This document shows, piece by piece, positions 9,139 through 41,676 of a stretch of 64,000 nt of DNA. Made by a program: the position numbers and the translations under genes. Under the pieces are notes generated by a model. The model was not told where the DNA came from, made no database searches, and saw nothing but the letters and a program-made list of their open reading frames with translations. Source of the DNA: a bacterium (GTDB lineage Bacteria; Margulisbacteria; Marinamargulisbacteria; JABGVJ01); NCBI GenBank assembly GCA_018646105.1, contig JABGVJ010000099.1, positions 5,387 to 69,386 on the forward strand. Reading direction: 5' to 3'. How positions within the stretch are numbered: the first letter of the stretch is position 1; every line of letters starts with the position of its first letter.

Positions 9139-9149
9139 AGGTATTTTGA

Positions 9150-13377: not shown

Positions 13378-13450
13378 TTTGAATTACTCCTTTTGAATGT
13401 TTTTTTCGAATCGTTTCTATGAAAATATTAACATAGTTTTTGTTGGAACG

Positions 13451-13496: not shown

Positions 13497-13512
13497 TTTT
13501 AAAGAAGAAGGT

Positions 13513-15741: not shown

Positions 15742-15838
15742 ATTTTTTTTCTCCTTTGTTTGATTTTTTGACCATTAAGAAGTATAGCTAATTTTCATAA
15801 GAAATGCCACTATTTTTCGGATATCCGTTTAGATTTGA

Positions 15839-15847
15839 GGGGGGGGG
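15839..15847. repeat. Poly-G tract (G9) in the divergent hppA/purE intergenic region
   Basis: Counted directly. Embedded in the inverted repeat TTGAGGG...CCCTCAA. Confidence 0.8.
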
Positions 15848-15932
15848 ATTAGCCCTCAATTTGTTGTATTATTGGAAATATAGAGGAGTTTGAAATATAA
15901 TGATATAGAAGTAAACGAAGAAGGAGAAGCTT

Positions 15933-17880: not shown

Positions 17881-17889
17881 TTAAGTTTA

Positions 17890-18210
17890 ATACTCACCCC
17901 CTGTCACCTGCAGTGACATCCCTTTCTCTTAAGAATACACTAGCATCCGGAGAAATCCGCAAAAAAACAAGTGCCCTCACCCCGGCGCTTCGCGCCACCC
18001 CTCTCCCGTGGAAACAGAATAAATTACTCAGTTAGTTTATATTCGGGAGAGGGGAATTGGTTATGGATAATTTTATCAATAAATCCACAATATATTCCCC
18101 CTCTCCCGAATATATCCTTACTGAAAGATATGATAGCTTCTCCACGGGAGAGGGGGCTAGGGGGTGAGGGCATTGGTTTTTTAAATAGGAGAAGGGTGAG
18201 GCCTAAGGAA
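17890..18210. repeat. Composite head-to-head REP-like structure between convergent purB and serS. It has nested inverted repeats, arms A/A' and B/B'.
   Basis: A = CCACCCCTCTCCCGTGGAA (17997-18015) pairs with A' = TTCTCCACGGGAGAGGGGG (18138-18156). B = TATTCGGGAGAGGGGAA (18039-18055) pairs with B' = TTCCCCCTCTCCCGAATA (18095-18112). A forward core is at 17975-18010 and a reverse-complement core (GGAGAGGGGGCTAGGGGGTGAGGGC) at 18147-18172, followed by a T6 run. Confidence 0.6.
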
Positions 18211-18215
18211 ATTTT

Positions 18216-27029: not shown

Positions 27030-27536
27030 TTATATTAATTCCCTTAAATTTTTAATAATTTTAACCTTTTTGTTTTTAAAATAATTTTGCCAATCTAAAA
27101 ACTCAGTGTATTCTGACATAAATACAAAATCAGCTCCAATAGACTTTGCGCTTTCATAATCATATTTACTGTCTCCTATAAAAATAATAGGCGGCTTTAT
27201 TAAACCTGTTTTCAATTCTCTCTTCAAAATTTTAATTTTATTATCAGGACATCCAAATATACCATCAAGGTTAGACGTTAATCCTTTATCTTTAAATATT
27301 TTTCTAAGTTTTGTTTGCAAGCCACCTGAAACAATTATTTTTTTACTATCTGGCGATAATGCTTGTATTAATTCTTTAAACCCTTCTGTTTCCAGGCAAG
27401 CCAGTAATTTTTTTTCTAGAATTAAACTAAAAGTTTGTAAAAGTTTTTTTAAATCATCTTCATATTCTTTTTGTCCTATAATCGTGCTGAAAAAATATTC
27501 TAATTTTTCAAAGCGGGAAATGCCGCCTTCCTTCAT
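27030..27536 (-). CDS. HAD-like/KdsC-sized hydrolase homolog lacking the N-terminal DxDG nucleophile motif; possibly inactive or truncated
   Basis: 168 aa. Has HAD motifs II-IV (IIVSGG, K, FIGDSKYD) but no motif I. Confidence 0.35.
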   Translation of the reverse strand: MKEGGISRFEKLEYFFSTIIGQKEYEDDLKKLLQTFSLILEKKLLACLETEGFKELIQALSPDSKKIIVSGGLQTKLRKIFKDKGLTSNLDGIFGCPDNKIKILKRELKTGLIKPPIIFIGDSKYDYESAKSIGADFVFMSEYTEFLDWQNYFKNKKVKIIKNLRELI

Positions 27537-27625
27537 ATGATACTTTATAAAAAGTTGTGGATATTATTAATATAGGAAATACCCATATGCTTACGTGAAA
27601 TGGACTGAAAACCGTAATATGTATG

Positions 27626-28381
27626 CTATTTAATTGAATATTTGTTTTTATATAAACTATCTTTTTCCATTTCTTTTCTTACAAAAATCAAATCTTCCTT
27701 GGTATCTACACTAACAGCTTCACTTTCAACTTTAACCGCTTTAATCTTATATCCTTTTTCTAGTATTCTCAAATATTCATTGTATTCTATTTTTTCTAAT
27801 TTTGTTTTGGGCCATGCTGCATATTGCAATAAAAAAGATTTTCGAAAAGGAACAATGTGATAAGCTTTTAACATTGGCGGGTTAGGAGTTCTGGCACAAG
27901 AGGGGATATCGGCTCTAGATAAATACATAACTTCCATATTTTCATTAACCACCGCCTTTATATCTGATGGCGAATTAACTTTATTATAAGGATTGACTAA
28001 AATTGCGATATTTAGGTTAGAATTTTTCTTTAATTCGACTGTAACAGCATTAATATGATCTGGGTTTACTAAGGCTTCATCTCCTTGAATATTAACAACA
28101 ATTTCGCATTCAATTTCTTTTGCTGCCTCAGCTATCCGATCTGTCCCTGTTTGATGCTCTTTGTTTGTCATAATAGCTTTCCCGCCGTGCGACACAATAA
28201 CGTCATGAATTTCTGAGCTATCTGTTGCAACATAAACCTCATCTAATTCATTTGATAATAGACTTCTCTTGTAAACATGGACTATCATAGGCAATCCACA
28301 TATATCTACAAGAGCTTTTCTAGGAAGACGAGAAGATTCTAATCTCGCCGGAATAATACCAACTGTTTTTTGCTTTTTCAT
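27626..28381 (-). CDS. CMP-sugar synthetase of the acylneuraminate/Kdo cytidylyltransferase family
   Basis: 251 aa. N-terminal GIIPARLESSRLPRKAL nucleotide-binding signature. Confidence 0.75.
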   Translation of the reverse strand: MKKQKTVGIIPARLESSRLPRKALVDICGLPMIVHVYKRSLLSNELDEVYVATDSSEIHDVIVSHGGKAIMTNKEHQTGTDRIAEAAKEIECEIVVNIQGDEALVNPDHINAVTVELKKNSNLNIAILVNPYNKVNSPSDIKAVVNENMEVMYLSRADIPSCARTPNPPMLKAYHIVPFRKSFLLQYAAWPKTKLEKIEYNEYLRILEKGYKIKAVKVESEAVSVDTKEDLIFVRKEMEKDSLYKNKYSIK

Positions 28382-29160
28382 TATTTAGTCTCCTCTTTAA
28401 ACCATTGCTGTAATTTATTGATTGGCTTAAACAACACGGAACTATCAACATCGTATGTAATAAAATTCATCCCCATATCTAAAAGCCACTTAACATCTTT
28501 TTCTGATTGAGCGACGAAGCCACCAGCATACTTACCTGCTGATACAACTTTTCTCACACCTTCTTTCATAGTTTTTATGACACTAGCATGTTTAACATTT
28601 CCTGGCACGCCTAATGCTTGAGATAAATCGTAAGCACCAAAATAAACCACATCAATTTCTTTTATTTTTAAGATTTCATCAAGATTATTAAGACCCTCTT
28701 GTGACTCAATGATAATAGAAATAATGGTGAAATCGTTGGCTTGAGCCGCATAATTTTCTTTTCCTAAATTTGTAAATCCACCTGCTTTACTAAATGGTGT
28801 ATAACCTCTTTTACCTTGAGGAAAATATTTTACATAATTCACTATTTTTTTTGCAGATGCATAATCATCAACATGTGGGATCATGATGCCATGCACGCCT
28901 TGGTCTAACGCCTGTAAAGCCATCCAATCAGCGTTTGCCGGGATACGCACTATAGGGGTGCAGTTATGCAATTCACAACGGCTCACATAGTCCTGAACAA
29001 GGTCTAATTGAAAAGGCCCATGCTCAAAATCAATAATTAAAAAATCTAATCCTGTGTGCGCAAGCACCTCCGCGGCCATAGGAGACCCCAACGTATTCCA
29101 CATCCCTAAAACAGGCTGGCCTTTGCTCATTTTGTTTTTTAAATAGTTATTTTTAATCAT
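28381..29160 (-). CDS. HpcH/HpaI-family class II (pyruvate/2-keto-acid) aldolase
   Basis: 259 aa. LIIDFEHGP, VRIP and EIDVVYFGAYDLS motifs of the HpcH/citrate-lyase-beta fold. Confidence 0.7.
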   Translation of the reverse strand: MIKNNYLKNKMSKGQPVLGMWNTLGSPMAAEVLAHTGLDFLIIDFEHGPFQLDLVQDYVSRCELHNCTPIVRIPANADWMALQALDQGVHGIMIPHVDDYASAKKIVNYVKYFPQGKRGYTPFSKAGGFTNLGKENYAAQANDFTIISIIIESQEGLNNLDEILKIKEIDVVYFGAYDLSQALGVPGNVKHASVIKTMKEGVRKVVSAGKYAGGFVAQSEKDVKWLLDMGMNFITYDVDSSVLFKPINKLQQWFKEETK

Positions 29161-29930
29161 GCTTCTATTTTTAACTCCTCAAAAGATTTAATACATTCAC
29201 AATCTAATCCAGTAAAATCATCCAATTCTCCCAAACCAGTTAATACGCCAATATTATGTTTAACCCCACTATTTATCCCCATTTTAATATCTACTACGTG
29301 ATCCCCAAAAACAGCCGCCTTTGATATATCTACTTTGCTTTGTGCCAAAATTTTATGTGCTAAATCTGGATATGGTTTGGTGTTTTCCACTTGATCCGCA
29401 CCAATAATATATTGAAAATATCTCGATATATTTAAAGTGTCTAAGGCAACCTTAGCTCTTGAAGTTATATCCGTGGTAACAATTGCCATTTTGATATTAT
29501 GTTTAGAGCACTGCTTTATAAAATTTAAAACACTAGGTAAAAGCTTAAGATATGGGGCTAAGTTTTTAGCTGTTAAGTGATCAACTTCTTTAAATATATT
29601 TTCAACTTCTCCTTCTTTTTTACTCATGTCATACTTATTAATAACTTCAGTAACCACTTTTACTATGTAGGTACGGGGTTTTATGCCAACTGGCCCCTCT
29701 GGTTTCATACGGCCTGTTTTTAAGTCTATTCCCATTCCATCTACTAATTCATCTCTTATTTTTTGACATTGTGAGAAATTTGAAAACCATTTGTCAACAA
29801 TAATCGCTGCTCTTTTTTTAATCATAGATCCCCAATAATGGTGAATATCAATAATTGTGCCATCTTTATCAAACATAATAAGTTCTATATTGGAAGAAAT
29901 AATCTTATCTCTAATAAAAAGTTTAGCCAT
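29157..29930 (-). CDS. HAD-superfamily phosphatase
   Basis: 257 aa. Motif I MFDKDGTIID; motif IV FGDHVVDIKMG. Confidence 0.65.
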   Translation of the reverse strand: MAKLFIRDKIISSNIELIMFDKDGTIIDIHHYWGSMIKKRAAIIVDKWFSNFSQCQKIRDELVDGMGIDLKTGRMKPEGPVGIKPRTYIVKVVTEVINKYDMSKKEGEVENIFKEVDHLTAKNLAPYLKLLPSVLNFIKQCSKHNIKMAIVTTDITSRAKVALDTLNISRYFQYIIGADQVENTKPYPDLAHKILAQSKVDISKAAVFGDHVVDIKMGINSGVKHNIGVLTGLGELDDFTGLDCECIKSFEELKIEA

Positions 29931-29934
29931 TTTT

Positions 29935-30954
29935 TTATTCCTCTATGCTTTCGACAACAAGCTTTTTTGCAATACTAATGGCTGCAGATAAATTTTTAAA
30001 ATCCTTATAAAAATTATCGTTGCTAAGATATTCTCTGACAATTTTCCTGGCGTGTGTACCAATGGCGACTCCATTAAAATAAATATTACAAAGCTTTGCC
30101 ATTTTTGATGTATAACTGTTTGTGCCACCTGATAATAATATATTTAAATTCTGGAATTTAGAATCTTTCTCAATTAAGTTCTTCTGAATAACATCAGCAA
30201 TCGCAATTGCTTGCAAAGTAGTGTTATAATCATCGCTTCCCCCGCTCATAGGAACCCCATCTGCTTGAATAATAAGACGATCTCCGGCCATATTAGCTGC
30301 TTTCCTTATGCGATCAATAAGATGCGTATTTGATAGATGTTTCCGATCCAAACACATAGAAACAAAATGATTGGGCTGGATTTTATTAACTAAAGCCCAC
30401 TCTTTCATAATAGACTCATCCCCAAGCACGGCCGCATGAAGCTCAATATTTTCTGCGCCTGCTTTTAAGCATTCAGGTAAAATTTGTGCTAGTCCTTTTT
30501 CATTATGTTCATATGCTATGGCATTTACTGGGCATACTGATTCACAATGGCCACACCCAATACATAATTCCCTATTAATTACTAAGTTTGACGGTATTGC
30601 TTTTGTCGGACAAACCTCTATACATTGTTTACATTTAATGCATTTTGCAGAAATAATTTTAGCTTTCCTTACATGATGATCTCCTGGCATCCCCACACTA
30701 ACTGTAATGAAAGGACGAATTGCTATATTAATATTTAGTTCTTTAGCTAATTGATAAGCTATATCAATCCCTTTTACACACCCTTTTACTACTGCGGGGG
30801 TAGCAGACACATCAAGGCCATTAGCGCCCGCTAAAGTATAAATCACGGCTAGCTTACGAACCTCATCTACATTTTCATTCCCAGCCCCACATACTAACTT
30901 AAAATACTTCCCTTTTTGAAGTAATTCTTTCATTTCTTTGTATCGTTCATTCAT
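29935..30954 (-). CDS. Protein with two [4Fe-4S] ferredoxin-type clusters and flanking domains of unknown function
   Basis: Two CxxCxxCxxxCP motifs (CIKCKQCIEVCP, CIGCGHCESVCP); 339 aa. Confidence 0.5.
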   Translation of the reverse strand: MNERYKEMKELLQKGKYFKLVCGAGNENVDEVRKLAVIYTLAGANGLDVSATPAVVKGCVKGIDIAYQLAKELNINIAIRPFITVSVGMPGDHHVRKAKIISAKCIKCKQCIEVCPTKAIPSNLVINRELCIGCGHCESVCPVNAIAYEHNEKGLAQILPECLKAGAENIELHAAVLGDESIMKEWALVNKIQPNHFVSMCLDRKHLSNTHLIDRIRKAANMAGDRLIIQADGVPMSGGSDDYNTTLQAIAIADVIQKNLIEKDSKFQNLNILLSGGTNSYTSKMAKLCNIYFNGVAIGTHARKIVREYLSNDNFYKDFKNLSAAISIAKKLVVESIEE

Positions 30955-30984
30955 ATACTTACCTCCAAAAAATTTAAATTATAT

Positions 30985-32619
30985 TTATAATAAACTGTAA
31001 ACAGAACAAACTGGTATATTGTAATTTGTTGGTAAAATTGAAGCTATTTTTTTATCTTCTGTATATTTACTATTTAACAAAATATCCCAAAAATCCTGCA
31101 TTTCTTTGCCTTCTTCTCTATTATCTCCATCTTGAAAACCATCAAAACCAGCCACATAAATATTCTTAGGCTTAGATAAAAGAGCTATACCAACAGCAAA
31201 AATCCCAACCAAATATGAAGTTAAGATTACTTTTTCATTATTAATCTCAAAATTATTTGCCTCTAAGCTATAATTTAAGCTCTTTAAATTTTCTTTCTGA
31301 AAAAATTCAGGTGCTTTTTTTAATCCGGTTACAATTTCTTTGACCTTTACTAAAATATTTTTATCTTTTAATTCTGATAAACGAACTTTGTTTAAAACCG
31401 CAATTGTTCTTGGAATATCCTTTAAAACCTCTACATTATTACATTCTATAACTAAAGGCTGCTGTTTATTAATAAATGCTTTTAGGGCATTTTCATGCTC
31501 TTTAATCGAAGGCCCTTTGGCAACTATTAATACTGACTCAGCCCCCTGCGCTTTGTATTTGGGAATTACAAACGTATCGTTTTGTTCAACGGTTTCTTTT
31601 CTTAAAACTTTATTACTAACTTCAACAAGTTTTGAAGCGTTATACTTTTCTCTGTTTTCTTTAGGAATACCTCTTAAAATTTCATTAACCTGGGCCATTG
31701 TATATTGATGTGCTGATCTTAATTTTTGACAATATGTTGGATGAAGATTTTCCAGCCCACTTAACATATAACTTAAATTCCAACCCCATCTGTATTTATT
31801 ATTAAGGGGAATAAAGTGTTTTTCTATAACGTCTAATAAAGAAAAGGCATTAAAATTTTTCCTGTCATTATTAAAATACATTGCCAATATAATTTGCTCT
31901 AATTTAAGATTACCAGCCCCCCTCCCCATGCCAGTTACGGTAGCATCAATAAAACTGATGCCTTCTTCAATAGCGCTCAACGTATTAGCATATGCTAAAC
32001 CTTGACTATCATGTGCATGGAATCCAATTTCACCTTTAAAATAAGTGCTAAATAATTTTTTGTAATAAGCGATATTTTTTACTGAAAAATTACCAAATGA
32101 ATCAGCAAAGTACAAAACTTTAAAAGGCGCATCTTTGATTTTTTTTAAGCCATCAATAATTTGACTTTCATTTAATAACGACACTCCCATAAAATTAAAA
32201 ACAACCTGATATCCTAATTCGGAAAGTAAACATGCTAACTTATTGGCTCCCTCAATTGTTTCATAATACGAAGCAACACGGCACCAATGAAAAACAGAAT
32301 CTTTTTGTGATTTTACAATACTATATAGTGCTTCTTTATTGATTTGACCATCAGCCAGTAAAAACTCTTTAGCATCTAGCATAAAAGCATATTCCATATT
32401 AGGGTATCTTTTAAGAAATTGAAGTTGGCTTTCACTACAATATTTACATAATCCGTAAAACTGATTTGTATTAAGAGACTTATACCCCATTTCAACGATA
32501 TCAACGCCACTTTTACTGAGCGCGTCAATAAGTTTTTCTATCAAATTTAGATCAAAATTCCAATTATTATAATAACCACCGTCTCTTAAAGTGCAATCTA
32601 AAATAGTTGTTTTTTTCAT
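30985..32619 (-). CDS. DRE-TIM metallolyase (HMGL-like/4-hydroxy-2-oxovalerate-aldolase-like) fused to a C-terminal domain of about 280 aa, possibly MptE/DUF115-like
   Basis: N-terminal ILDCTLRDGGY and HAHD metal motif; C-terminal domain with GPS and VAGFDGF motifs; 544 aa. Confidence 0.55.
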   Translation of the reverse strand: MKKTTILDCTLRDGGYYNNWNFDLNLIEKLIDALSKSGVDIVEMGYKSLNTNQFYGLCKYCSESQLQFLKRYPNMEYAFMLDAKEFLLADGQINKEALYSIVKSQKDSVFHWCRVASYYETIEGANKLACLLSELGYQVVFNFMGVSLLNESQIIDGLKKIKDAPFKVLYFADSFGNFSVKNIAYYKKLFSTYFKGEIGFHAHDSQGLAYANTLSAIEEGISFIDATVTGMGRGAGNLKLEQIILAMYFNNDRKNFNAFSLLDVIEKHFIPLNNKYRWGWNLSYMLSGLENLHPTYCQKLRSAHQYTMAQVNEILRGIPKENREKYNASKLVEVSNKVLRKETVEQNDTFVIPKYKAQGAESVLIVAKGPSIKEHENALKAFINKQQPLVIECNNVEVLKDIPRTIAVLNKVRLSELKDKNILVKVKEIVTGLKKAPEFFQKENLKSLNYSLEANNFEINNEKVILTSYLVGIFAVGIALLSKPKNIYVAGFDGFQDGDNREEGKEMQDFWDILLNSKYTEDKKIASILPTNYNIPVCSVYSLL

Positions 32620-32717
32620 TTTTGTTCCTTTACTGTAAAGTATTATATCATTTTTTCAAATTTGAACGAACGTCTGTTATCATATTTTTTTTTAGTTTAG
32701 CTGTTTTCTGTATAGGA

Positions 32718-32745
32718 TTGACAGCTCTGCTATACGAATTATAAA
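32718..32745 (+). promoter_or_regulatory. Candidate sigma70 promoter (TTGACA, 16-nt spacer, TATAAA) driving the plus-strand island genes
   Basis: Sits in the divergent region between the minus-strand aldolase operon and the 32814 ORF. Confidence 0.35.
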
Positions 32746-32813
32746 ATGTCTTATGTTAAAATACTTAACAAAAAATAGATAATTTAGGTTTTTAGTAGGA
32801 GATATTTATTTTC

Positions 32814-34142
32814 GTGTTTTTATTAAATTTAAATTATTTATTAAGGAAATATAAGATGAAAAAATATAAAACACTTATATTTTTAATGAATTTTATTTTA
32901 GGAAGACCTCCTAAAATAGGGGAAATAAAATCAGTTTGTAATAGAATAAAAAAACAATATTTTTTACAACTTAATACAAAAGATATTTTTTTGGATAGAG
33001 TAAAATTATTTCTTCATATATTAATTTTTCCATTTAAGTTTTCTTTTAATTTAAATAAGTCTAAAGCAAAAATATTTATATATGATATAGAAAAAAAAGA
33101 TATAAGAAAAAGGTTTGTGCAATATTATCGACAAAAAGAAGGCCAAAATTTAGATTTAAAAGATATTGAAATTTTTCGAAGTAATGAATTTTATTATAAC
33201 GATATAAGCGTAAAAACAATATTTTTTTTAATTAAAATATGGGTAATATTTTTAGGATGTAGTTTTTTTTCTTTTTTCGATCGTACTAGCTGTTCATATT
33301 TATGGCTTTTATGTGTATTAAATAATATTGCTAATGCGATTTTTACCAATAAGGGCGTTTCTGAATTATATTTTTCTTATCTATATAATATACAATCATA
33401 TTTTTCTGTTTTACTAATTAGTAATATATTAGAAAATCAAATTTATTTAATTTCTGGGAATAGTATGCTTTATACAATTAATAGATATACTAGTGCAGAA
33501 AAATGCAATTTTATTTTATGTTCTAAATATCAGGAAGAAGAAGCTAATAATTTTATAAATTTGCATTGGATAAAAGTGAAGAGTATTAAATTGTGGGGGT
33601 TAGATGGGGCTTCATTTTATGAAGATTTAAAACCACAAAATTTTTTATATGATGTAGGTATTTATAGCAGTGTTTCTTGGGCCAGGGTAGATGGCGTTTG
33701 GCGAGCAAATGATATAAAGGCAATAAAAAATTATAAGTATATAAAAAATGAACGATATGCTAATTTTTTAAAAATTTTGGACGAAATTATAGAACTGAAA
33801 AAAAAAACAGGGATAAAAGTTAAGTTTTATTTGCATCCTTTTGAAAGATATTTATATAAAGTTCATAAAATAAAGCCTCCTTATTTTTCTATTTTAGTTA
33901 AAGAAGGTATAGCTGTTGATTTTAAAGATGATAATTCAATTAAAAAAATGTATGAGGCTAAAGTAGGAGTTACTTTATGTTCGACAATTATTTTTGATAG
34001 ATTACATTATGGTTTAGAGGGCTTTATTTATGCTGAATGGCCTCAACACAAAATGTTTAATCCTAAATTTATGGGGAAATATCAAGCTAATATTTTTTAT
34101 AATTTTGATGAGCTTCAAGCAAAAATAAAAAAAGCTTTATAA
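32814..34142 (+). CDS. Hypothetical protein; very AT-rich and Asn/Lys/Ile-rich. The probable start is the MKKYKT Met at 32856.
   Basis: ORF only. Contains an A10 tract at 33798-33807. Confidence 0.3.
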   Translation: MFLLNLNYLLRKYKMKKYKTLIFLMNFILGRPPKIGEIKSVCNRIKKQYFLQLNTKDIFLDRVKLFLHILIFPFKFSFNLNKSKAKIFIYDIEKKDIRKRFVQYYRQKEGQNLDLKDIEIFRSNEFYYNDISVKTIFFLIKIWVIFLGCSFFSFFDRTSCSYLWLLCVLNNIANAIFTNKGVSELYFSYLYNIQSYFSVLLISNILENQIYLISGNSMLYTINRYTSAEKCNFILCSKYQEEEANNFINLHWIKVKSIKLWGLDGASFYEDLKPQNFLYDVGIYSSVSWARVDGVWRANDIKAIKNYKYIKNERYANFLKILDEIIELKKKTGIKVKFYLHPFERYLYKVHKIKPPYFSILVKEGIAVDFKDDNSIKKMYEAKVGVTLCSTIIFDRLHYGLEGFIYAEWPQHKMFNPKFMGKYQANIFYNFDELQAKIKKAL

Positions 34143-34161
34143 AAAGAAATTATAAATAATT

Positions 34162-35649
34162 ATGACTAAATATATTCATTCAGGTAGCCATATAAAAACA
34201 CTTTTAAAAAATTCTTCTTGGTATTTTATATCCTCCATTTTATCAAAAGGCTTAGGCATAATTCTTATGCCAATTATGACGCGTTTGTTAACTACGACAG
34301 ATTATGGGCTTTTATCAAATTTAAATGCGATAATTGGTTTTGTTACTGTGTTCATTTCATTATATATTGACAGTGCTTTTAATCGATTTTATTTTGAGCA
34401 CAATGAAAGTCAAAAATCGCTTAAGGAATATATCAGTACATTTTTTTGGTTTGTAACTTTTTGGGGGGCATTTGTAACTTTTATTTTAATAATAGTTAGT
34501 AAATTTTACTTAGCTTCATTATATTCAATAAAATTTTTCCCTCTTCTTTTTGGAGCTTCAATCATTCCATTATTTATTCAGCTAGCCGCGTTTGGCTCAC
34601 ATTATTTAAGAAATAATCTTAAAATAAAATTAATTGTTATTCCTAATTTAGTTATATCTATACTAACAATTATCGTAAGTATCTTTTTGATTATTAAATT
34701 TGATTTAGGAGTTGTAGGTAGATTTTATGGTATTTTATTAGGTGTTTTCTTGTCGTTTATATATTTTACTTTTATTTTAATTCAAAAAAAGTTAATCATA
34801 TTTTATTTAGATAAAAAGTTAATCATAGCTGGGTTGAAATACTCTCTTCCTCTTGTTCCTTTAGCTCTTTCTTCTTGGATAACGCAATTAAGTGATCGTA
34901 TTATTCTTACTTATTATACAGATTTTTCAGAAACAGGTTTGTATGATGTTGCATATAAAGCCTCTTTAACTTTAAGAATATTTACAGAATCAATATTTCA
35001 GGTTTATTCTCCAATGATGATATCAATGTATACTCATGATAAAGAAGCGTTTAGAAGTAAGTTAAAGAAGTTTATTCCTCAGTTTAATTGGATAATGCTT
35101 TTTGCTGCTTTTTATTTGGCTATTTTATCAAAAGAAATAATTATAATATTGACAGGTAGTAAATTTCATAGCGCCTATACTTTGGTTCCTATTATTGTTT
35201 TTGCCTATTATATTAGTTCGCATCAAAAATATTTTGGGTCAATTTTTGGATTAAAGAAAAAGACATATTTAAGCACAGTTGGATATTTTTTGCAGGCGTT
35301 GATTAATTTAACATTAAATATTATTTTTATTCCAATTTTAGGAAAAGTTGCTGCCGCATGGTCTACTTTTTTTTCATTATTCTTTTTAACGATATGGAGT
35401 GGTTTTTGGTTTTTTAAATGGGAGAGTGTTAAAATAGAATGGAATAAGATTATCAAGACTTTTTTGATTTTGATCATAGTTTATATAGTATATTTAGGCA
35501 TTAATACTGTTTTTAAGTATACAGCAGTGCCAATGTTCTTTATTAAATTATTAATAACAGCTCCGGTTATTCTTTTCTTTACTTATAAATTTGAGATTAT
35601 TAACATCAAAGGAATCATGGGCATATTTAACAAAAAAGGATTTAAATAA
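34162..35649 (+). CDS. Wzx-type oligosaccharide flippase (MOP superfamily)
   Basis: 495 aa, 12-14 TM helices, polysaccharide-biosynthesis-protein pattern. Confidence 0.7.
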   Translation: MTKYIHSGSHIKTLLKNSSWYFISSILSKGLGIILMPIMTRLLTTTDYGLLSNLNAIIGFVTVFISLYIDSAFNRFYFEHNESQKSLKEYISTFFWFVTFWGAFVTFILIIVSKFYLASLYSIKFFPLLFGASIIPLFIQLAAFGSHYLRNNLKIKLIVIPNLVISILTIIVSIFLIIKFDLGVVGRFYGILLGVFLSFIYFTFILIQKKLIIFYLDKKLIIAGLKYSLPLVPLALSSWITQLSDRIILTYYTDFSETGLYDVAYKASLTLRIFTESIFQVYSPMMISMYTHDKEAFRSKLKKFIPQFNWIMLFAAFYLAILSKEIIIILTGSKFHSAYTLVPIIVFAYYISSHQKYFGSIFGLKKKTYLSTVGYFLQALINLTLNIIFIPILGKVAAAWSTFFSLFFLTIWSGFWFFKWESVKIEWNKIIKTFLILIIVYIVYLGINTVFKYTAVPMFFIKLLITAPVILFFTYKFEIINIKGIMGIFNKKGFK

Positions 35650-35658
35650 AAATTTCAT

Positions 35659-36804
35659 ATGAAAATTATTTTTACAGGAGATTTATCAGCAAGCGGGATT
35701 TTTTATTCAAAAATAAAAAATAGTGAAAATGTTTTTTCTCAAGAAATAACTTCTTTTTTTAATCAAGCTAATTTTGTTCATGTTAATTTAGAAAATCCGA
35801 TTACGAATCAGCCATTTAGAAAAGATAAAAGAGGAGCAGCTTTAAGAGCTCCTTTGGAAGTTGTTAATTTATTGCAAAAAAATAATATAAATATTTGTTT
35901 ATTAGCCAACAATCATATTGTTGATTGTGGAAAGGCAGGTTTATTAGACACAATTTCAATTTTAAATAAAAATAATATTTTATACTATGGAATTTCAAAT
36001 AAACCTAAATATATTATTCTTAAAAAAGAAAATATGAGAATAGCTTTAATATCTTCTGCTCATATAGAAGGTCCGATGGGAAATGAAAATAGATTAGGGC
36101 CCTATTTTTTAAATAATAGAAGAATTAAAAAAATAATAGAGGAAATTAAAAAAAATGAAAATGTAGATAGCATAATATATAATTATCATGGAGGAACAGA
36201 ATATAATATTATTCCAGAACCTCAGAGAAGAAGGTTTTTTAAAGAACTTATTAATTATGGAGTAGATATAGTTTTTGGGCATCACGCACATGTTCCTCAA
36301 GGAGTTGAAAGACATAAAAATGGTATTATATTTTATGGTTTAGGAAATTTGGTGTTTGATTTGAAATCACAAAAAGATAAAGCATATACGAATTTATCTT
36401 ATTTTATAGAATTGAATTTTAAAAAAAATAAGCCTGTAGAGTTTATGGAGCATTTTTATTATATTGATTATAAAATGGGTAGAATTATTTTGCTTCAAGA
36501 TGATTCTATTAAAAAACGTATAAAAAACAAAATACAGGTTTTTAAAGATGAGGAAGAATATAAACAAGCCTGGTTAGAAGAATCTTATAGAGTTTATTTA
36601 TTTAATAGAAAAATAGATTTTTTTTCATCTAATTTACCTAATAATGAAATAAACAAAAATAATAATAAACAAAAAAAAAGAAATATATTAAATAGAATTT
36701 TAAGTTTAATAAAAAGATTAAGCTTAGATAGTATAAAATCAAATAAAAGGCCTTTTGTTATTGGCGCTATAAAAAGGGGTTTAAAATATGGAGTTAGGAG
36801 GTGA
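35659..36804 (+). CDS. CapA/PGA_cap-family metallophosphatase-like protein
   Basis: N-terminal GDLS...HVNLENPIT and LANNHIVDCG motifs of the CapA family. Confidence 0.55.
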   Translation: MKIIFTGDLSASGIFYSKIKNSENVFSQEITSFFNQANFVHVNLENPITNQPFRKDKRGAALRAPLEVVNLLQKNNINICLLANNHIVDCGKAGLLDTISILNKNNILYYGISNKPKYIILKKENMRIALISSAHIEGPMGNENRLGPYFLNNRRIKKIIEEIKKNENVDSIIYNYHGGTEYNIIPEPQRRRFFKELINYGVDIVFGHHAHVPQGVERHKNGIIFYGLGNLVFDLKSQKDKAYTNLSYFIELNFKKNKPVEFMEHFYYIDYKMGRIILLQDDSIKKRIKNKIQVFKDEEEYKQAWLEESYRVYLFNRKIDFFSSNLPNNEINKNNNKQKKRNILNRILSLIKRLSLDSIKSNKRPFVIGAIKRGLKYGVRR

Positions 36805-36862
36805 ATAATAATTTGATTGTTTTTAGATTATTATGATTGAAATATTTAATTAAGGAGAGATT

Positions 36863-37579
36863 ATGAAAAGGTTTTTTTATAAAATTTTAGAGAAAATCGG
36901 CTTGTATTGTAACAATAAATGTTTGAAATATATTTATTTTAATAAGAAAAAATCAAATTATTTATATGAAAGAGTAATTGAATTTGCTTTTACATTGGAG
37001 AAATTAAGTGAAAATAAAATTCTTAATGTATTAGATGTAGGAACTGGCACCAATTCTTTTTCTTCCACGTTAGAACATTGTGGATTTAATGTTACTGCTA
37101 GTGATTTGATGGGTAGTTATTGGTCTTTTTTTCAAAATAGACATATATTTGTTTATAAAGATGATATTACGAAATCGAAGTTTGAATCAGAAAAATTTGA
37201 TGCAGTAACTTGTATTTCAACTTTAGAACATATTGAAGATTATAATGCGGCAATTAAACAGATGGTAAGAATTATTAAAAGTAAAGGGTTGTTAATTTTG
37301 ACTTTTCCGTACTCTTGTGATGAATTTTGTGAAAATGTTTATAAACTTAAAACAGCAGATAAAATGGCGCAAGGTTTTAGATATATTGCAAGGTCATTTT
37401 GTGATGATCAAATTGAAGAATGGTGTTCTAGATTTAATATAGAGATAGCTGATAAAAAATATATAAGAGGTTGGGACGGAAAGTTTTGGAGAAGTGGGAA
37501 AAGGATCGATTTTCCATATGAAGTTAAAGAAAAAGAAAAAGCCAATGCTATATGCCTAGTTTTTAAAAAAAGAATGTGA
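36863..37579 (+). CDS. Class I SAM-dependent methyltransferase
   Basis: LDVGTGTNSFS motif I; 238 aa. Confidence 0.6.
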   Translation: MKRFFYKILEKIGLYCNNKCLKYIYFNKKKSNYLYERVIEFAFTLEKLSENKILNVLDVGTGTNSFSSTLEHCGFNVTASDLMGSYWSFFQNRHIFVYKDDITKSKFESEKFDAVTCISTLEHIEDYNAAIKQMVRIIKSKGLLILTFPYSCDEFCENVYKLKTADKMAQGFRYIARSFCDDQIEEWCSRFNIEIADKKYIRGWDGKFWRSGKRIDFPYEVKEKEKANAICLVFKKRM

Positions 37580-37595
37580 AAATTGGAGTTAATAG

Positions 37596-39305
37596 GTGAA
37601 TAATAATTTGATCATTTCTGAACTAAAATCAGGATGGAAATCTTTTAAGAAAAAAAATATCTGTTTGCGATGGACCGGAAAGATAATTATAAATAATAAA
37701 TTTATGGATTCTCCAATAGAATTATATGATTTATTTGAAAAAATTAATTTTGACGATGATATAGCTATAAAAAAAATATTGGAAAGGCTTGATGGCTTTT
37801 TTACAATAATATATGAAACAGAAAATAATATAATAGCAATTAATGATCGTCTTCGTTCTTATCCAATTTATTTTTATCATAAAGCAAATCAATTATTTAT
37901 ATCAGATAACGCATATTTAATTAAAGAAAAATTCAATTTAAATATTCAAAATAATAATGGAAGTGTAGAATTTTTATTAAGCGGATACGTCACAGGAAAT
38001 GAAACTTTATATAAAGATTTATTACAATTATTACCAGGTCAATATTTGTCTTATGATAAAAAATTGCATAGATTTAAGATAAAGGAGTATTTTAAATATT
38101 ATCCAAATACTAATAATAATTTAGAACTAAGCTTAGAGAATAAAGTAAAAGAATATAAAGAATTAATATATAGTTCATTTGAAAGATTGAAAGATTATAT
38201 TATTAAAAATAAGTATCAGCCAATTATTCCGCTTAGTGGAGGAAGAGATTCTAGATTGATGGCTGTAATGTTAAAAGAAGTGGGGATAGAAAATTCTATA
38301 GCTTTTACTTATGGGACTAAAGAGCATAAAGAGGTTATTAAAAGTAAAGAAATAGCAGGGGAATTAGGGGTAGATTGGTTTTTTTGCTCTTATACAAAAG
38401 AAAAATGGCATAAAGAATATAATAATTCTATAGTAAAAAAATATTTTAATTATGCAGACGGGCTTTCTGTAAGACCACATGTCCTAGATTATATTGCAGT
38501 TAAAGAATTATTTTCAAAGAAAAAAGAAAAATTATTATTTTTGTCTGGACATAGTTTAGATTTTATAGCAGGTAGCCATATTCCTGCATCATTATTTATG
38601 TTAAACAAACCTTCAAAAAATAATTTATATGAAGCGATTTTAGCAAAACATTTTTCATTTCATTATATTTATAAAAAAGAACGAGCTATGCTTATCGAAA
38701 GAATAAGTTCTTCTCTAGATTTTTTGCCGCAAGCTACATTTGATGAAATTATTTCGGCTTTTGAATATTGGGATTGGCGCGAAAGGCAAGGAAAATTTAT
38801 TTTAAATGCACTTAATGTATATGATTTTTTTAATTTTGATTGGTATTTGCCTTTTTGGGAAAGGCAATGGATGAATTTTTTTATGCAATTACCTTGTGAA
38901 TGGCGTTATAAACAAAATTTTCAAAGATATGCTCTTCATAAATTATTTCCAAATTATTTTGAAAAAGAAGAATGGTTTTGTGAGAAAGAAACTAAAAAAG
39001 AAGAAATAAAGAGAAAATTTAAACGTAATCTCAAAAAAATTATTTTAAAAATACCATTGAGCTCATATTATTTCAGGAGAAATAATTATGCTGGTGTTGC
39101 TAGTAATTATGGGGTAGAAAGATATGGGGCATTTGATGTTAATGTTAACTCATTAGAAGAGTTTGCTAAAAAATATACTGCCGAAACAGATATAAGTAGA
39201 ATATTTTATTTTTTTACTTTGCACTATTTATTAAAAAACAATTTCAATTTAAATTTTTTAGATAGTAAATATAAGAAAATAATGGAATTAATAAATTATG
39301 AATAA
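37596..39305 (+). CDS. Asparagine-synthase-family (PP-loop ATP pyrophosphatase) amidotransferase lacking the N-terminal Cys nucleophile (WbpS/WbpG-like)
   Basis: PLSGGRDSRLMAV (SGGxDS PP-loop). The N-terminus is MNNN with no MCG. Confidence 0.6.
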   Translation: MNNNLIISELKSGWKSFKKKNICLRWTGKIIINNKFMDSPIELYDLFEKINFDDDIAIKKILERLDGFFTIIYETENNIIAINDRLRSYPIYFYHKANQLFISDNAYLIKEKFNLNIQNNNGSVEFLLSGYVTGNETLYKDLLQLLPGQYLSYDKKLHRFKIKEYFKYYPNTNNNLELSLENKVKEYKELIYSSFERLKDYIIKNKYQPIIPLSGGRDSRLMAVMLKEVGIENSIAFTYGTKEHKEVIKSKEIAGELGVDWFFCSYTKEKWHKEYNNSIVKKYFNYADGLSVRPHVLDYIAVKELFSKKKEKLLFLSGHSLDFIAGSHIPASLFMLNKPSKNNLYEAILAKHFSFHYIYKKERAMLIERISSSLDFLPQATFDEIISAFEYWDWRERQGKFILNALNVYDFFNFDWYLPFWERQWMNFFMQLPCEWRYKQNFQRYALHKLFPNYFEKEEWFCEKETKKEEIKRKFKRNLKKIILKIPLSSYYFRRNNYAGVASNYGVERYGAFDVNVNSLEEFAKKYTAETDISRIFYFFTLHYLLKNNFNLNFLDSKYKKIMELINYE

Positions 39306-40557
39306 CCAAAAAGAAATAATAGTTATAGCCTTTAAATTTCCGCCAATGGGCGGAATTGGGAGCAGAAGATGGGCTAAATTTGTTAAATATTTGGCTAATA
39401 AAGGTTATATAGTTCATGTGATTACTATTAAATATTCCTATAAAGATAAGATTAATTGGACAAGAGATGTTGAAGATAATGAAAATATAATAATCCATCG
39501 GTTGCCATCTTGCTTTCCTGTTTTTTTCTTAAAAGAAAATAAAAGTAATTTATTATTGTTATTGGAAAAAATATTTAATAAGACTATAAAAAAGCTCTTT
39601 TTTTATTTAGATATAGCGCAGGGTTGGGAGAAAAAGTTAATTCCTTATGCAAGAAATTTGATTAGGGAGAAAAACATTAAAAATGTGATAGTCACAGGGC
39701 CGCCTAGTTCTTTACATTATATTGCTACCTATCTAAAAATTGAAAATCCGTTAATTAATTTAATTCAAGATTATAGAGACCTTTGGAATTGCGATATAGA
39801 TTATGAATATAAAACCACCTTAACTAACTTTAGACAAAAGGAGAAAGCTGCGTATATGGAGTTTTTTACGATTGCACATGCAGATAAAGTTGTTTTTATT
39901 ACAGAAGATGCAAAGAACATGATGGGTAATTTGTATAAAGAATTTTGTCATAAATTTTGTTGTATCTATAATGGTTTTGATCAAGACGATAAAAAAATAT
40001 TAGAAAATACTAAAGATATTTCGAGAAAATTCAATATGATATATACAGGTAATTTGGGTCTAGGCCGAGAAAAAACTTTGGTATTGTTAGCAAGAGCAAT
40101 CGCGGAATTAAATGATAGTTTTATTAATGATAATTTAATGATTGATGTTTATTCTACTTTAAACCTAAAGTATTATGTGAAAAATAAATATTATGATATT
40201 TTGCAAAAGAATTTTAGATTTCATACTAAAGTGGAGCAAAAGGAAGTGTTAAATATCACTAATGAATATTATGTTTGTTTATCAATTAATGCTCCTATTT
40301 ATCCTTATACTATTGGAGCTAAGATATTTGATTATATGTTGTTAAATAAAAGGATTTTTCATATTTCCGAATTAGGAGAATTTAGTAGGTTATTAAAATC
40401 CAAGAAACAGTTTGTCGCGGATTATAATTTGGATACAATAAAAGAACAATTGATAAAAATAAAAGCAGATTTTTTAGCAAATAAGCGAGATAAATTTGAT
40501 TATTCAGAATTCGATCTTGAAAGATTAGTTGGAAAATTTGAGGGCTTGTTGATATAA
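39298..40557 (+). CDS. Glycosyltransferase, GT-B fold (GT4-like)
   Basis: FKFPPMGGIGSRRW N-terminal GT4-like pattern; 419 aa. Confidence 0.45.
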   Translation: MNNQKEIIVIAFKFPPMGGIGSRRWAKFVKYLANKGYIVHVITIKYSYKDKINWTRDVEDNENIIIHRLPSCFPVFFLKENKSNLLLLLEKIFNKTIKKLFFYLDIAQGWEKKLIPYARNLIREKNIKNVIVTGPPSSLHYIATYLKIENPLINLIQDYRDLWNCDIDYEYKTTLTNFRQKEKAAYMEFFTIAHADKVVFITEDAKNMMGNLYKEFCHKFCCIYNGFDQDDKKILENTKDISRKFNMIYTGNLGLGREKTLVLLARAIAELNDSFINDNLMIDVYSTLNLKYYVKNKYYDILQKNFRFHTKVEQKEVLNITNEYYVCLSINAPIYPYTIGAKIFDYMLLNKRIFHISELGEFSRLLKSKKQFVADYNLDTIKEQLIKIKADFLANKRDKFDYSEFDLERLVGKFEGLLI

Positions 40558-40571
40558 CTTGAAGGGAATAA

Positions 40572-41663: not shown

Positions 41664-41676
41664 AAAGGGATAAAAG

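What the first reader, a model, noticed from the sequence alone, without database searches (positions are those of the whole stretch)
27030..32619. Minus-strand operon pairing two unrelated pyruvate-type aldolases with HAD phosphatases, a di-[4Fe-4S] protein and a CMP-sugar synthetase: candidate undescribed CMP-ulosonic-acid pathway
Six genes are packed tightly, with 1-4 nt overlaps and gaps of 4-30 nt. In operon order they are a DRE-TIM metallolyase with an extra C-terminal domain, a two-cluster Fe-S protein, a HAD phosphatase, an HpcH/HpaI class II aldolase, an acylneuraminate/Kdo-type cytidylyltransferase, and a HAD-like protein lacking its nucleophile. The canonical route to CMP-Kdo or CMP-sialic acid uses a PEP-dependent synthase (KdsA or NeuB), then a HAD phosphatase, then a cytidylyltransferase. 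Here the synthase step appears to be replaced by pyruvate-dependent class II aldolase(s). The operon sits immediately after wecB/wecC. That suggests a route of pyruvate plus an aldose or amino-sugar phosphate, giving a 3-deoxy-2-ulosonate phosphate, then the free ulosonate, then the CMP-ulosonate for the capsule. The Fe-S protein has no counterpart in known nonulosonate pathways.
Basis: partly seen in the sequence, partly recalled or inferred. Interest (0 to 1): 0.7.

Follow-up and report, generated by a model that had tools for sequence, protein, structure and literature searches.

The report
Conserved cassette for an unknown CMP-sugar acid
Five tightly packed genes in a surface-polysaccharide locus form a cassette, conserved in many bacteria and some archaea and never characterised, that most likely builds and CMP-activates a Kdo/sialic-acid-like sugar acid from pyruvate without the usual PEP-dependent synthase.

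Summary
The six ORFs and all six domain assignments are confirmed. Five genes form a real, conserved unit: a DRE-TIM aldolase fused to a Maf/MptE-like domain, an LdpA-family Fe-S protein, a HAD phosphatase, an HpcH aldolase and a KdsB-like cytidylyltransferase. The same set, mostly in the same order, recurs in over 60 bacterial, archaeal and metagenomic loci.

New points:
- The sixth gene is a 5'-truncated relic of a different HAD.
- The fused aldolase always travels with a cytidylyltransferase and a HAD. LdpA-HAD-HpcH looks like a sub-module inserted into that trio.
- The Fe-S protein is a phosphate-binding-type TIM barrel with a two-cluster ferredoxin insert, so probably an enzyme rather than a plain electron carrier.
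- The extra C-terminal domain resembles Maf flagellin glycosyltransferases, which use CMP-ulosonates.
- wecB/wecC are convergent and not conserved partners.

No NeuB, KdsA or PEP mutase was found in the window, and no paper characterising the cassette turned up. The best reading is a PEP-independent route to a CMP-activated 3-deoxy-2-ulosonic acid. The product and the order of steps are unresolved. This is a new variant of a known kind, of moderately high interest.

The parts
31600..32619 (-). Gene 1, residues 1 to about 340: DRE-TIM metallolyase barrel plus helical domain, predicted to be a pyruvate aldolase.
30985..31599 (-). Gene 1, residues about 341 to 544: divergent MptE-like / Maf_flag10-like nucleotide-binding domain, fused to the aldolase.
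29935..30954 (-). Gene 2: LdpA-family protein, a (beta/alpha)8 barrel with a 2x[4Fe-4S] ferredoxin module inserted after strand 3.
29157..29930 (-). Gene 3: HAD-IA (C1-cap) phosphatase, called HAD1 here.
   Evidence: Pfam HAD_2 7.5e-23 and Hydrolase 7.8e-22. Motif I is FDKDGT, with both Asp residues present (alignment). Nearest PDB entries are phosphoglycolate and sugar phosphatases, and the matches are weak. There is no KdsC-type match. It lies directly downstream of the LdpA-like gene in 57 of 66 metagenomic loci with enough flank.
28381..29160 (-). Gene 4: HpcH/HpaI-family class II (metal-dependent) pyruvate aldolase.
   Evidence: Pfam E 6e-34. HpaI, GarL and RhmA equivalog models score 136-162 bits, well below their cutoffs. 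PDB YfaU 3e-37 and HpaI 6e-36. In the printed YfaU alignment the query motifs IDFEHGP, PIVRIP, IIIESQ and GAYDLS match YfaU's; I identify these from memory as the catalytic His, Arg, Glu and Asp (H46, R72, E152, D178).
27626..28381 (-). Gene 5: KdsB-like CMP-ulosonate synthetase (cytidylyltransferase), PRK13368 subfamily.
   Evidence: CTP_transf_3 1e-49. NF009905 scores 255.6 against a cutoff of 255; TIGR00466 kdsB scores 165.3 against 155.2. E. coli K-CKS 1gq9 E 1.8e-43. Motifs differ from KdsB: EYNEYLR where KdsB has E.LEQLR, and KAYHIVPF where KdsB has RHVGIYAY.
27030..27536 (-). Gene 6: 5'-truncated relic of the HAD hydrolase that belongs to the sister (type A) cassette. It lacks about 50 N-terminal residues, including the FDxDGV nucleophile motif.
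   Evidence: Alignment with seven full-length homologues, and no coding potential for the missing part in the 89-nt upstream gap. Full-length copies accompany type B cassettes in L099, L153 and L157.
32620..32813 (.). 194-bp divergent intergenic region between gene 1 and the plus-strand 442-aa ORF. This is the presumed promoter region of the cassette.
   Evidence: ORF map. It holds the best sigma-70-like match in the scanned region, on the plus strand at 32718-32747 (11 of 12), and a weaker minus-strand match at 32659-32632. These are consensus matches only.

Best explanation
Genes 1 to 5 are one transcription unit that encodes a self-contained, PEP-independent route to a CMP-activated 3-deoxy-2-ulosonic (alpha-keto) sugar acid for the surrounding Wzx/Wzy-type polysaccharide locus.

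Shown by sequence and structure comparison:
- Two metal-dependent pyruvate-aldolase-type enzymes, DRE-TIM and HpcH, both with intact catalytic residues. Their characterised relatives make 4-hydroxy-2-oxo acids, which is the 3-deoxy-2-ulosonate skeleton.
- A DxD-type HAD phosphatase.
- A KdsB-family cytidylyltransferase.

Inferred steps:
1. A phosphorylated aldehyde is condensed with pyruvate.
2. The LdpA-family barrel, which has a phosphate-binding-type fold and takes or gives electrons through its two [4Fe-4S] clusters, performs a redox tailoring step on a phosphorylated intermediate.
3. HAD1, its almost invariable neighbour, removes the phosphate.
4. The second aldolase either makes the aldehyde partner or extends the chain.
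5. The KdsB-like enzyme forms the CMP-ester.
6. The Maf/CstII-like domain fused to the DRE-TIM aldolase binds the CMP-sugar. It acts either as the transferase that installs it or as an end-product feedback sensor on the first committed enzyme, as the C-terminal regulatory domains of other DRE-TIM synthases do.

In evolutionary terms, the constant core is aldolase-Maf fusion + cytidylyltransferase + HAD. LdpA-HAD1-HpcH is an inserted sub-module whose HAD made the old one redundant, hence the truncated sixth gene.
For: - Domain and catalytic-residue checks.
- The same five genes occur in a Methanomicrobiaceae archaeon and in diverse bacteria.
- With the Fe-S gene as the only anchor in metagenomes, and counting only loci with enough flank: HAD1 directly downstream in 57 of 66, HpcH downstream in 40 of 56 (it lies upstream in others), the DRE-TIM fusion upstream in 40 of 52, the cytidylyltransferase in 37 of 44.
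- In the related loci examined by Pfam or phmmer, the DRE-TIM fusion is accompanied by a CTP_transf_3 enzyme and a HAD. Those cytidylyltransferases fall in the KdsB-like PRK13368 model or are PseF-like. To my knowledge, every characterised member of this enzyme family activates a 2-keto-3-deoxy sugar acid.
- The cassettes sit in glycan loci. About a quarter lie next to NeuB/Leg-type nonulosonate genes. Two lie next to KpsC-type Kdo transferases, one of them with a GT29-like sialyltransferase.
- The C-terminal domain matches Maf, whose family uses CMP-Pse, CMP-Leg, CMP-Neu5Ac and CMP-Kdo as donors (PMC11339370).
- The window lacks NeuB, KdsA and PEP mutase.
- The relic HAD and the hybrid locus L085 support the insertion model.
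- In an NJ tree of the fusion protein, type B cassettes fall in at least four places among type A.
Against: - No product, substrate or order of steps is established.
- Two aldolases are more than a simple KdsA-type scheme needs.
- DmpG-type aldolases normally take small aldehydes, and the His that acts as base in DmpG is Tyr here.
- HAD1 is not of the KdsC or Kdn-9-P phosphatase type.
- The MptE-like domain is below the Pfam threshold. It could instead be a kinase or pyrophosphokinase, and it has no conserved His like the CstII base.
- The rest of the genome is unseen, so KdsA or NeuB may exist elsewhere.
- The literature search covers open-access papers only.
Confidence: 0.5

Rival explanations
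1. The product is ordinary Kdo. The cassette would be a non-orthologous, capsule-dedicated replacement for KdsD, KdsA and KdsC, plus a KpsU-like CMP-Kdo synthetase. One aldolase would condense pyruvate with arabinose-5-phosphate, the LdpA-like phosphate-binding barrel would supply or isomerise the pentose phosphate, and HAD1 would act as Kdo-8-P phosphatase.
For: Gene 5 passes the TIGR00466 kdsB equivalog cutoff (165.3 against 155.2) and two KdsB subfamily models. Its best PDB match is the capsule CMP-Kdo synthetase K-CKS. Sister cassettes lie beside KpsC-type Kdo transferases in Methylobacillus flagellatus and Idiomarina aquatica. An archaeon without LPS carries the whole set, which fits a self-sufficient module.
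Against: The score is only marginally above the cutoff, and type A homologues fall below it. Motifs that are constant in the two true KdsB sequences aligned (RHVGIYAY, E.LEQLR) are replaced throughout the cassette enzymes. An isomerase would not need two [4Fe-4S] clusters. One aldolase would be superfluous. HAD1 is unrelated to KdsC. KpsC is a neighbour in only 2 of the roughly 165 loci scanned.
Confidence: 0.15
2. The cassette does not make a sugar acid from scratch. Instead it tailors or extends a nonulosonic acid (Leg or Pse type) made by NeuB elsewhere. [quoted passage not shown] In this reading the Maf-like domain holds the CMP-NulO.
For: NeuB, NeuC, PtmE, PtmF, PtmA and LegF homologues flank about a quarter of the cassettes. 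B12-binding radical SAM enzymes and methyltransferases are frequent neighbours. A Magnetospirillum MAG (L034) has the sister cassette beside NeuB and LegF. CMP-linked C10 alpha-keto acids of unknown origin exist in M. gryphiswaldense (bioRxiv 10.64898/2026.04.20.719630).
Against: The window and many other loci have no NeuB or Leg genes within reach. The cassette carries its own cytidylyltransferase even where LegF is present. Two pyruvate aldolases and a phosphatase fit de novo synthesis better than tailoring. No link between these genes and the Magnetospirillum compounds has been shown.
Confidence: 0.15
3. The CMP-activated product is not a sugar-like ulosonate. It would be a small or branched hydroxy/keto acid, or another phosphorylated metabolite, used as a non-carbohydrate substituent of the glycan. 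The MptE-like domain would act as a kinase or pyrophosphokinase that creates the phosphorylated intermediate handled by the HAD enzyme.
For: Characterised DmpG-type and HpcH-type aldolases prefer C1-C4 aldehydes (my knowledge of these families). HAD1 resembles phosphatases for small substrates such as phosphoglycolate. PF01973 is named after a pyrophosphokinase. No conserved catalytic His is visible in the C-terminal domain.
Confidence: 0.12
4. The gene order is coincidental. The aldolases and the Fe-S protein would belong to a catabolic (meta-cleavage-type) pathway that merely sits next to a kdsB gene.
For: Both aldolase families are best known from aromatic and sugar-acid catabolism.
Against: The same genes stay together, overlapping or a few nucleotides apart, in more than 60 loci from unrelated bacteria and an archaeon, always inside glycan loci. 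No DmpF-type dehydrogenase, hydratase or ring-cleavage gene was seen among the called neighbours of the Pfam-annotated loci.
Confidence: 0.02

Closest known systems
CMP-Kdo pathway (KdsD, KdsA, KdsC, KdsB; capsule copies KpsF, KpsU)
   Same: It ends with a KdsB-family cytidylyltransferase (K-CKS E 1.8e-43), includes a phosphatase step, and sits in a surface-polysaccharide locus. Its likely product class is a 3-deoxy-2-ulosonic acid.
   Different: There is no KdsA-type PEP-dependent synthase and no SIS-domain isomerase. The phosphatase is a capped HAD-IA, not the capless KdsC type. The cassette adds two class II pyruvate aldolases and a Fe-S barrel. The cytidylyltransferase motifs differ from those of KdsB.
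CMP-sialic acid, CMP-legionaminic/pseudaminic acid and CMP-Kdn pathways (NeuB/LegI/PseI synthase, phosphatase where needed, NeuA/LegF/PseF)
   Same: The logic is the same: make a keto-acid sugar, then CMP-activate it. Related cassettes are often physically next to these genes. Some variants use a PseF-like cytidylyltransferase.
   Different: There is no NeuB-family synthase in the cassette or the window. The carbon-carbon bond would be made from pyruvate by metal-dependent aldolases. A redox Fe-S enzyme is present, which has no counterpart in those pathways.
DmpG/BphI/AmnG 4-hydroxy-2-oxovalerate aldolases (DRE-TIM)
   Same: These are the closest characterised relatives of gene 1 by sequence and fold, including the helical domain after the barrel. 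The metal ligands and the Arg are the same.
   Different: Scores are far below the equivalog cutoffs. Tyr replaces the catalytic His21. There is no partner acylating aldehyde dehydrogenase, and the protein is fused to a Maf/MptE-like domain instead. The context is biosynthetic glycan genes rather than catabolism.
Maf flagellin nonulosonic-acid glycosyltransferases and CstII-type (GT42) sialyltransferases; archaeal MptE
   Different: It is below the Pfam threshold. It has no Maf N- or C-terminal domains, no evident catalytic His, and it is mainly found fused to an aldolase. Whether it transfers, senses or phosphorylates is unknown.
Cyanobacterial LdpA (circadian redox-sensing Fe-S protein) and DUF561/Ycf23
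   Same: Gene 2 aligns over its full length with the LdpA model, with the same barrel-plus-ferredoxin architecture.
   Different: It scores 157 bits against a cutoff of 450, so it is not an orthologue. It is embedded in a sugar-acid operon next to a phosphatase, and it is extremely conserved (61-68% identity) with an enzyme-like set of invariant polar residues.

Membership tests
DRE-TIM metallolyase superfamily (Pfam HMGL-like) | A (beta/alpha)8 barrel with the Asp-Arg-Glu signature and Asp plus His-x-His metal ligands. | tested here: met
4-hydroxy-2-oxovalerate aldolase (DmpG/BphI equivalog) | Score above the curated equivalog cutoff, the catalytic His21, and a partner acylating aldehyde dehydrogenase (DmpF). 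| tested here: not met
   TIGR03217 scores 91.5 against 286, and NF006049 scores 105 against 229. Tyr16 aligns with DmpG His21. No aldehyde dehydrogenase is in the operon.
HpcH/HpaI class II aldolase family | The Pfam domain plus the catalytic His, Arg and the Glu/Asp metal ligands. | tested here: met
   PF03328 scores 117.7 against 25. H46, R72, E152 and D178 align with the YfaU/HpaI motifs, which I identify as catalytic from memory. It is not a member of the HpaI, GarL or RhmA equivalogs (136-162 bits against cutoffs of 369-441).
KdsB (CMP-Kdo synthetase) | Score above the curated model cutoff. | tested here: met
   TIGR00466 scores 165.3 against 155.2, NF009905 scores 255.6 against 255, and NF003952 scores 244.9 against 193. 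The pass is marginal. Sister-cassette enzymes fall below the TIGR00466 cutoff.
KdsB (CMP-Kdo synthetase) | Conservation of the sugar-pocket motifs and a functional partnership with KdsA and KdsC. | tested here: inconclusive
   RHVGIYAY and E.LEQLR in the two true KdsB sequences aligned are replaced by KAYHIVPF and EYNEYLR in all type B enzymes. That these motifs contact Kdo is my recollection and was not tested here. No KdsA or KdsC is in the window, and the rest of the genome is unseen.
HAD phosphatase superfamily (gene 3) | Motif I DxD nucleophile and acid pair, plus motifs II to IV. | tested here: met
   FDKDGT, the TT motif, K-P and GDhvvD are present. HAD_2 scores 82 bits against 23.8.
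KdsC / Kdn-9-P phosphatase (capless HAD-IIIA '8KDO' type) | A match to the KdsC-type models and absence of a cap domain. | tested here: not met
   No KdsC model appears among the 25 best NCBIfam hits. HAD-SF-IIIA scores 27.9 against 44.6.
HAD phosphatase superfamily (gene 6) | Motif I nucleophile Asp. | tested here: not met
   The ORF starts about 50 residues after the FDxDGV motif of its seven full-length homologues, and the upstream 89 nt do not encode it.
LdpA (circadian clock Fe-S protein) | Score above the equivalog cutoff. | tested here: not met
   NF045992 scores 156.8 against 450. The Pfam LdpA_C (42.4 against 22.2) and LdpA_Fe-S-bd (37.7 against 27.6) domains do pass. It is therefore a family relative, not an orthologue.
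MptE-like / Maf_flag10 (PF01973) | Pfam gathering score, and the Maf/CstII-like fold. | tested here: inconclusive
Canonical PEP-dependent ulosonate synthase pathways (NeuB, KdsA) | Presence of a NeuB or DAHP_synth_1-type synthase in the unit. | tested here: not met
   phmmer with a NeuB query found none in the window. Pfam scans of 46 window ORFs of at least 150 aa show no NeuB or KdsA domain.
Phosphonate pathways (PEP mutase, FrbC/RhiG HMGL-like enzymes, PntC cytidylyltransferase) | PEP mutase encoded in the neighbourhood. | tested here: not met
   The HpcH-like protein matches only HpcH-type aldolases in the PDB, with no PEP mutase or ICL match. No PEP_mutase domain is in the window. Classification criteria are from bioRxiv 10.1101/2021.04.07.438883.

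The most novel reading that the evidence does not exclude
The cassette encodes a previously undescribed, PEP-independent pathway to a new CMP-activated ulosonic acid, possibly deoxygenated or chain-extended. In it, an LdpA-family Fe-S TIM-barrel enzyme carries out a redox step on a phosphorylated sugar-acid intermediate. That would be the first enzymatic function for the LdpA/DUF561 family. The aldolase-fused Maf-like domain would be a new kind of CMP-ulosonate transferase or end-product sensor. The pathway would be shared by many uncultured bacteria, Leptospira-type O-antigen loci and methanogenic archaea.
Probability: 0.35. Interest if true: 0.8.

Novelty: new variant of a known kind. Interest (0 to 1): 0.66.

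Why it matters
Acidic keto-sugars such as Kdo, sialic, legionaminic and pseudaminic acids are key determinants of bacterial surfaces, immune evasion and phage recognition. To my knowledge, every known route to them uses a PEP-dependent NeuB- or KdsA-type synthase. A widespread cassette that replaces this step with pyruvate aldolases and adds a Fe-S redox enzyme would do four things:
- Reveal a new sugar or a new route.
- Give an enzymatic role to the enigmatic LdpA family.
- Help explain unassigned CMP-linked keto acids now being seen by mass spectrometry.
- Supply aldolase, cytidylyltransferase and possibly transferase parts for glycoengineering.

It would also correct automatic annotations that currently call these genes '4-hydroxy-2-oxovalerate aldolase', 'ferredoxin' and 'CMP-Kdo synthetase'.

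Tried and rejected
- Eight full-text searches looked for a published characterisation, using combinations of HpcH, cytidylyltransferase, HMGL-like, LdpA, ulosonic, Leptospira rfb, Maf and 3DXI. None described the cassette. The 3DXI search returned only ultrasound papers.
- A phosphonate reading was rejected: there is no PEP mutase, and the HpcH protein is a true HpcH-type aldolase.
- A catabolic meta-cleavage reading was rejected on synteny and context.
- The wecB/wecC (ManNAc) link was rejected: those genes are convergent and are not conserved next to the cassette.
- The promoter and terminator scan was uninformative in this AT-rich DNA: 39 promoter-like sites against 32 expected, and no terminators.
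- A sequence-profile search of the C-terminal domain against the PDB gave nothing significant.
- The divergent 442-aa ORF gave no match in Pfam, NCBIfam or the PDB, and it has no homologue in the related loci, so it could not be tied to the cassette.
- KpsC-type neighbours were found in only two loci, so they do not generalise.

Full report
**Observation.**
The six minus-strand ORFs exist exactly where stated. Genes 1 to 5 (30985-32619, 29935-30954, 29157-29930, 28381-29160, 27626-28381) are separated by 30 nt, 4 nt, a 4-nt overlap and a 1-nt overlap. Gene 6 (27030-27536) follows after 89 nt.

Pfam and NCBIfam confirm every domain call:
- Gene 1 is an HMGL-like DRE-TIM with an extra C-terminal domain.
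- Gene 2 is a protein with two CxxCxxCxxxCP motifs.
- Gene 3 is a HAD hydrolase.
- Gene 4 is HpcH/HpaI.
- Gene 5 is CTP_transf_3.
- Gene 6 is a HAD-like protein that matches the HAD profile only from position 46 onwards.

The unit lies in a polysaccharide locus of about 44 kb, from 19617 to at least 62908. On one side are Wza-like, CpsB, Wzc-like, an initiating transferase, WecB and WecC. On the other are Wzx, a PGA_cap protein, methyltransferases, an AsnB-like protein, aminotransferase, glycosyltransferases and more. wecB and wecC are on the other strand and converge on the cassette, so they are not co-transcribed with it.

**It is a conserved cassette, not a chance arrangement.**
The window protein is identical to 'hypothetical protein HOC37_01800 [bacterium]'. 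Homologues of gene 1 have the same length of about 540 aa in bacteria and archaea.

I read neighbourhoods for individual homologues. I also scanned 80 species-representative genomes, followed by phmmer with the six window proteins. Two main cassette types emerged.
- Type B is the window's type: DRE-TIM fusion, LdpA-like, HAD1, HpcH, cytidylyltransferase. It occurs mostly in that order in a Methanomicrobiaceae archaeon, Nitrosomonadales, Ca. Microthrix, Omnitrophota, Bdellovibrionales, Deltaproteobacteria and others.
- Type A is commoner and is found in cultured Alteromonas, Idiomarina, Marinobacter, Methylobacillus, Rossellomorea and Cobetia. It has the same fusion protein, a cytidylyltransferase, and a 210-220-aa HAD of a different kind.

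As an independent check I anchored on the Fe-S gene alone in metagenome contigs. Among loci with enough flank:

| Neighbour | Loci with it / loci with enough flank |
|---|---|
| HAD1 directly downstream | 57 / 66 |
| HpcH downstream (upstream in others) | 40 / 56 |
| Fusion protein upstream | 40 / 52 |
| Cytidylyltransferase | 37 / 44 |

**The sixth gene.**
Its homologues are the type A HADs. Aligned with seven of them, it lacks the first 50 or so residues, including the FDxDGV nucleophile motif, and the 89-nt gap cannot encode them.
- Full-length copies accompany type B cassettes in three metagenomic loci.
- Locus L085 is a hybrid: the fusion protein, a type-B-like cytidylyltransferase and a type A HAD.
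- In an NJ tree of the fusion protein, type B loci fall in at least four places among type A.

Together these suggest a constant core of fusion protein, cytidylyltransferase and HAD. LdpA-HAD1-HpcH would have been inserted into it repeatedly as a three-gene sub-module. The window's gene 6 is the decaying, now redundant, original HAD.

**Gene 1.**

**Gene 2.**
It aligns over its whole length with the cyanobacterial LdpA model but far below the cutoff (157 against 450 bits). The AlphaFold model (pLDDT 88) is a (beta/alpha)8 barrel with the two-cluster ferredoxin module inserted after strand 3.

The family is unusually conserved: 61-68% identity among the top 120 of 2821 hits. Even with archaeal and distant bacterial members, these stay invariant:
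- the eight ferredoxin cysteines;
- four further cysteines (C22, C162, C201, C289);
- K19, N26, E27, D48, D92, H94, R96, K97, E168, E171, H173, D203, R204, Q230, D232, D241 and D242;
- the SGGTN loop after strand 7 and R303 (GT.AR loop) after strand 8.

This is the pattern of an enzyme active site with a standard phosphate-binding site. It is not the pattern of a simple electron carrier. The tight pairing with HAD1 agrees with a phosphorylated substrate.

**Genes 3 to 5.**
- HAD1 has the DxD motif of phosphatases and mutases and a C1 cap. It is not KdsC-like.
- The HpcH protein aligns with YfaU and HpaI over its full length and keeps H46, R72, E152 and D178. It is below the cutoffs of the HpaI, GarL and RhmA equivalogs.
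- The cytidylyltransferase is KdsB-like. K-CKS gives E 1.8e-43. It scores just above the PRK13368 and TIGR00466 cutoffs, and type A enzymes also fall in PRK13368.
- All cassette cytidylyltransferases replace the RHVGIYAY and E.LEQLR motifs of the two true KdsB sequences aligned. I recall these motifs as lining the Kdo pocket, but that is a lead and was not tested here.

**What it most likely does.**
Both aldolase families make 4-hydroxy-2-oxo acids from pyruvate and an aldehyde, which is the skeleton of 3-deoxy-2-ulosonic acids. The only characterised substrates of the KdsB/NeuA family are such acids. The cassettes sit in glycan loci. About a quarter lie beside Leg-type nonulosonate genes. Two lie beside KpsC-type Kdo transferases, one of them with a GT29-like protein. 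The window has no NeuB, KdsA or PEP mutase.

I therefore favour a PEP-independent route to a CMP-activated ulosonic acid, with confidence about 0.5. The assignments of the second aldolase (making the aldehyde partner or extending the chain), of the Fe-S barrel (redox tailoring of a phosphorylated intermediate) and of the Maf-like domain (transferase, or end-product sensor like the regulatory domains of other DRE-TIM synthases) are inferences.

The rivals are:
- ordinary Kdo by a non-orthologous route (0.15);
- tailoring of NeuB-made nonulosonates, perhaps related to the unassigned CMP-linked C10 keto acids of Magnetospirillum (bioRxiv 10.64898/2026.04.20.719630; L034 is a Magnetospirillum MAG with the sister cassette) (0.15);
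- a non-sugar acid, with the C-terminal domain acting as a kinase (0.12);
- coincidence (0.02).

**Known or new.**
No paper in the searchable library characterises the cassette. A Leptospira preprint lists an HpcH-type aldolase, a KdsB-like enzyme and NeuB upstream of the rfb locus, without assigning a function (bioRxiv 10.1101/771931). The Pfam families named after Leptospira O-antigen proteins (LIC12162, Lept_O_ant_chp1) are neighbours in several loci.

By kind, this is a nucleotide-sugar pathway for a keto-acid sugar, which is a known kind. It appears to use non-homologous synthases and an added Fe-S enzyme, so I class it as a new variant of a known kind.

Four details do not:
- the wecB/wecC link;
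- the functional status of gene 6;
- the description of the Fe-S protein as 'just a di-cluster protein';
- the unrecognised nature of the C-terminal domain.

Noticed in passing
window 32814-34142 (+): A 442-aa ORF, divergent from the cassette and just upstream of the Wzx flippase gene. It has no match in Pfam, NCBIfam or the PDB and no homologue in any of the related loci. It may be an orphan glycosyltransferase or polymerase, and it contains an 'HP' dipeptide motif reminiscent of bacterial sialyltransferases (from memory only).
   Followed up: partly
window 32001-42000 compared with the rest: G+C drops to 24-28% across the genes downstream of the cassette. The cassette itself is at 33-34% and the housekeeping genes at 1-19500 are at 32-39%. 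The serotype-specific part of the locus looks compositionally foreign, and the cassette does not.
   Followed up: no
window 45425-47866 (+): An 813-aa triple fusion of a SAM methyltransferase, an NAD-dependent epimerase/dehydratase and a short-chain dehydrogenase. It is preceded by a radical SAM/SPASM protein (44235-45440). Parts of both, and the GT2 at 47876-48823, have close homologues in locus L008 (Oligoflexia), which carries the sister cassette.
   Followed up: partly
window 35659-36804, 37596-39305, 50946-51953 (+): A PGA_cap (CapA-like) protein, an asparagine-synthase-like amidotransferase and a FemAB-like protein sit inside the polysaccharide locus. This hints at amino-acid or amide decoration of the polymer.
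   Followed up: no
window 54131-56251 and 60329-62908 (+): A heparinase II/III-like protein, and an 859-aa CotH-kinase plus beta-helix protein, are encoded at the distal end of the locus. These are unusual companions for a capsule cluster.
   Followed up: no
related loci L002, L084, L086, L087, L091, L097, L114, L138 and others: B12-binding radical SAM enzymes (about 500-550 aa) often follow the cytidylyltransferase of type B cassettes directly. In L086 and L087 they are followed by an unannotated protein of 570-630 aa. LIC12162-family proteins (about 600 aa) often precede the cassette. These may be tailoring enzymes and transferases for the same product.
   Followed up: partly
L017 (Idiomarina aquatica) 9986-14696; L043 (Cobetia crustatorum) 9291-12270: These are further cassette variants. 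L017 has the fusion protein, HpcH, a PseF-like cytidylyltransferase, an epimerase and a type A HAD, without the Fe-S protein. L043 has a PseF-like cytidylyltransferase upstream of the fusion protein. The module is evidently combinatorial.
   Followed up: partly
window, whole length: GC skew is strongly positive on the plus strand everywhere except 28-32 kb, where the cassette lies on the minus strand. Nearly all other genes are on the plus strand, so the cassette is an inverted island in a co-oriented region.
   Followed up: no
window 9150-10922 (-) and 13513-15741 (-): A long (590-aa) phosphofructokinase-family protein and a membrane H+-pyrophosphatase are encoded among the housekeeping genes. 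This suggests pyrophosphate-based energy metabolism in this low-GC uncultured bacterium.
   Followed up: no
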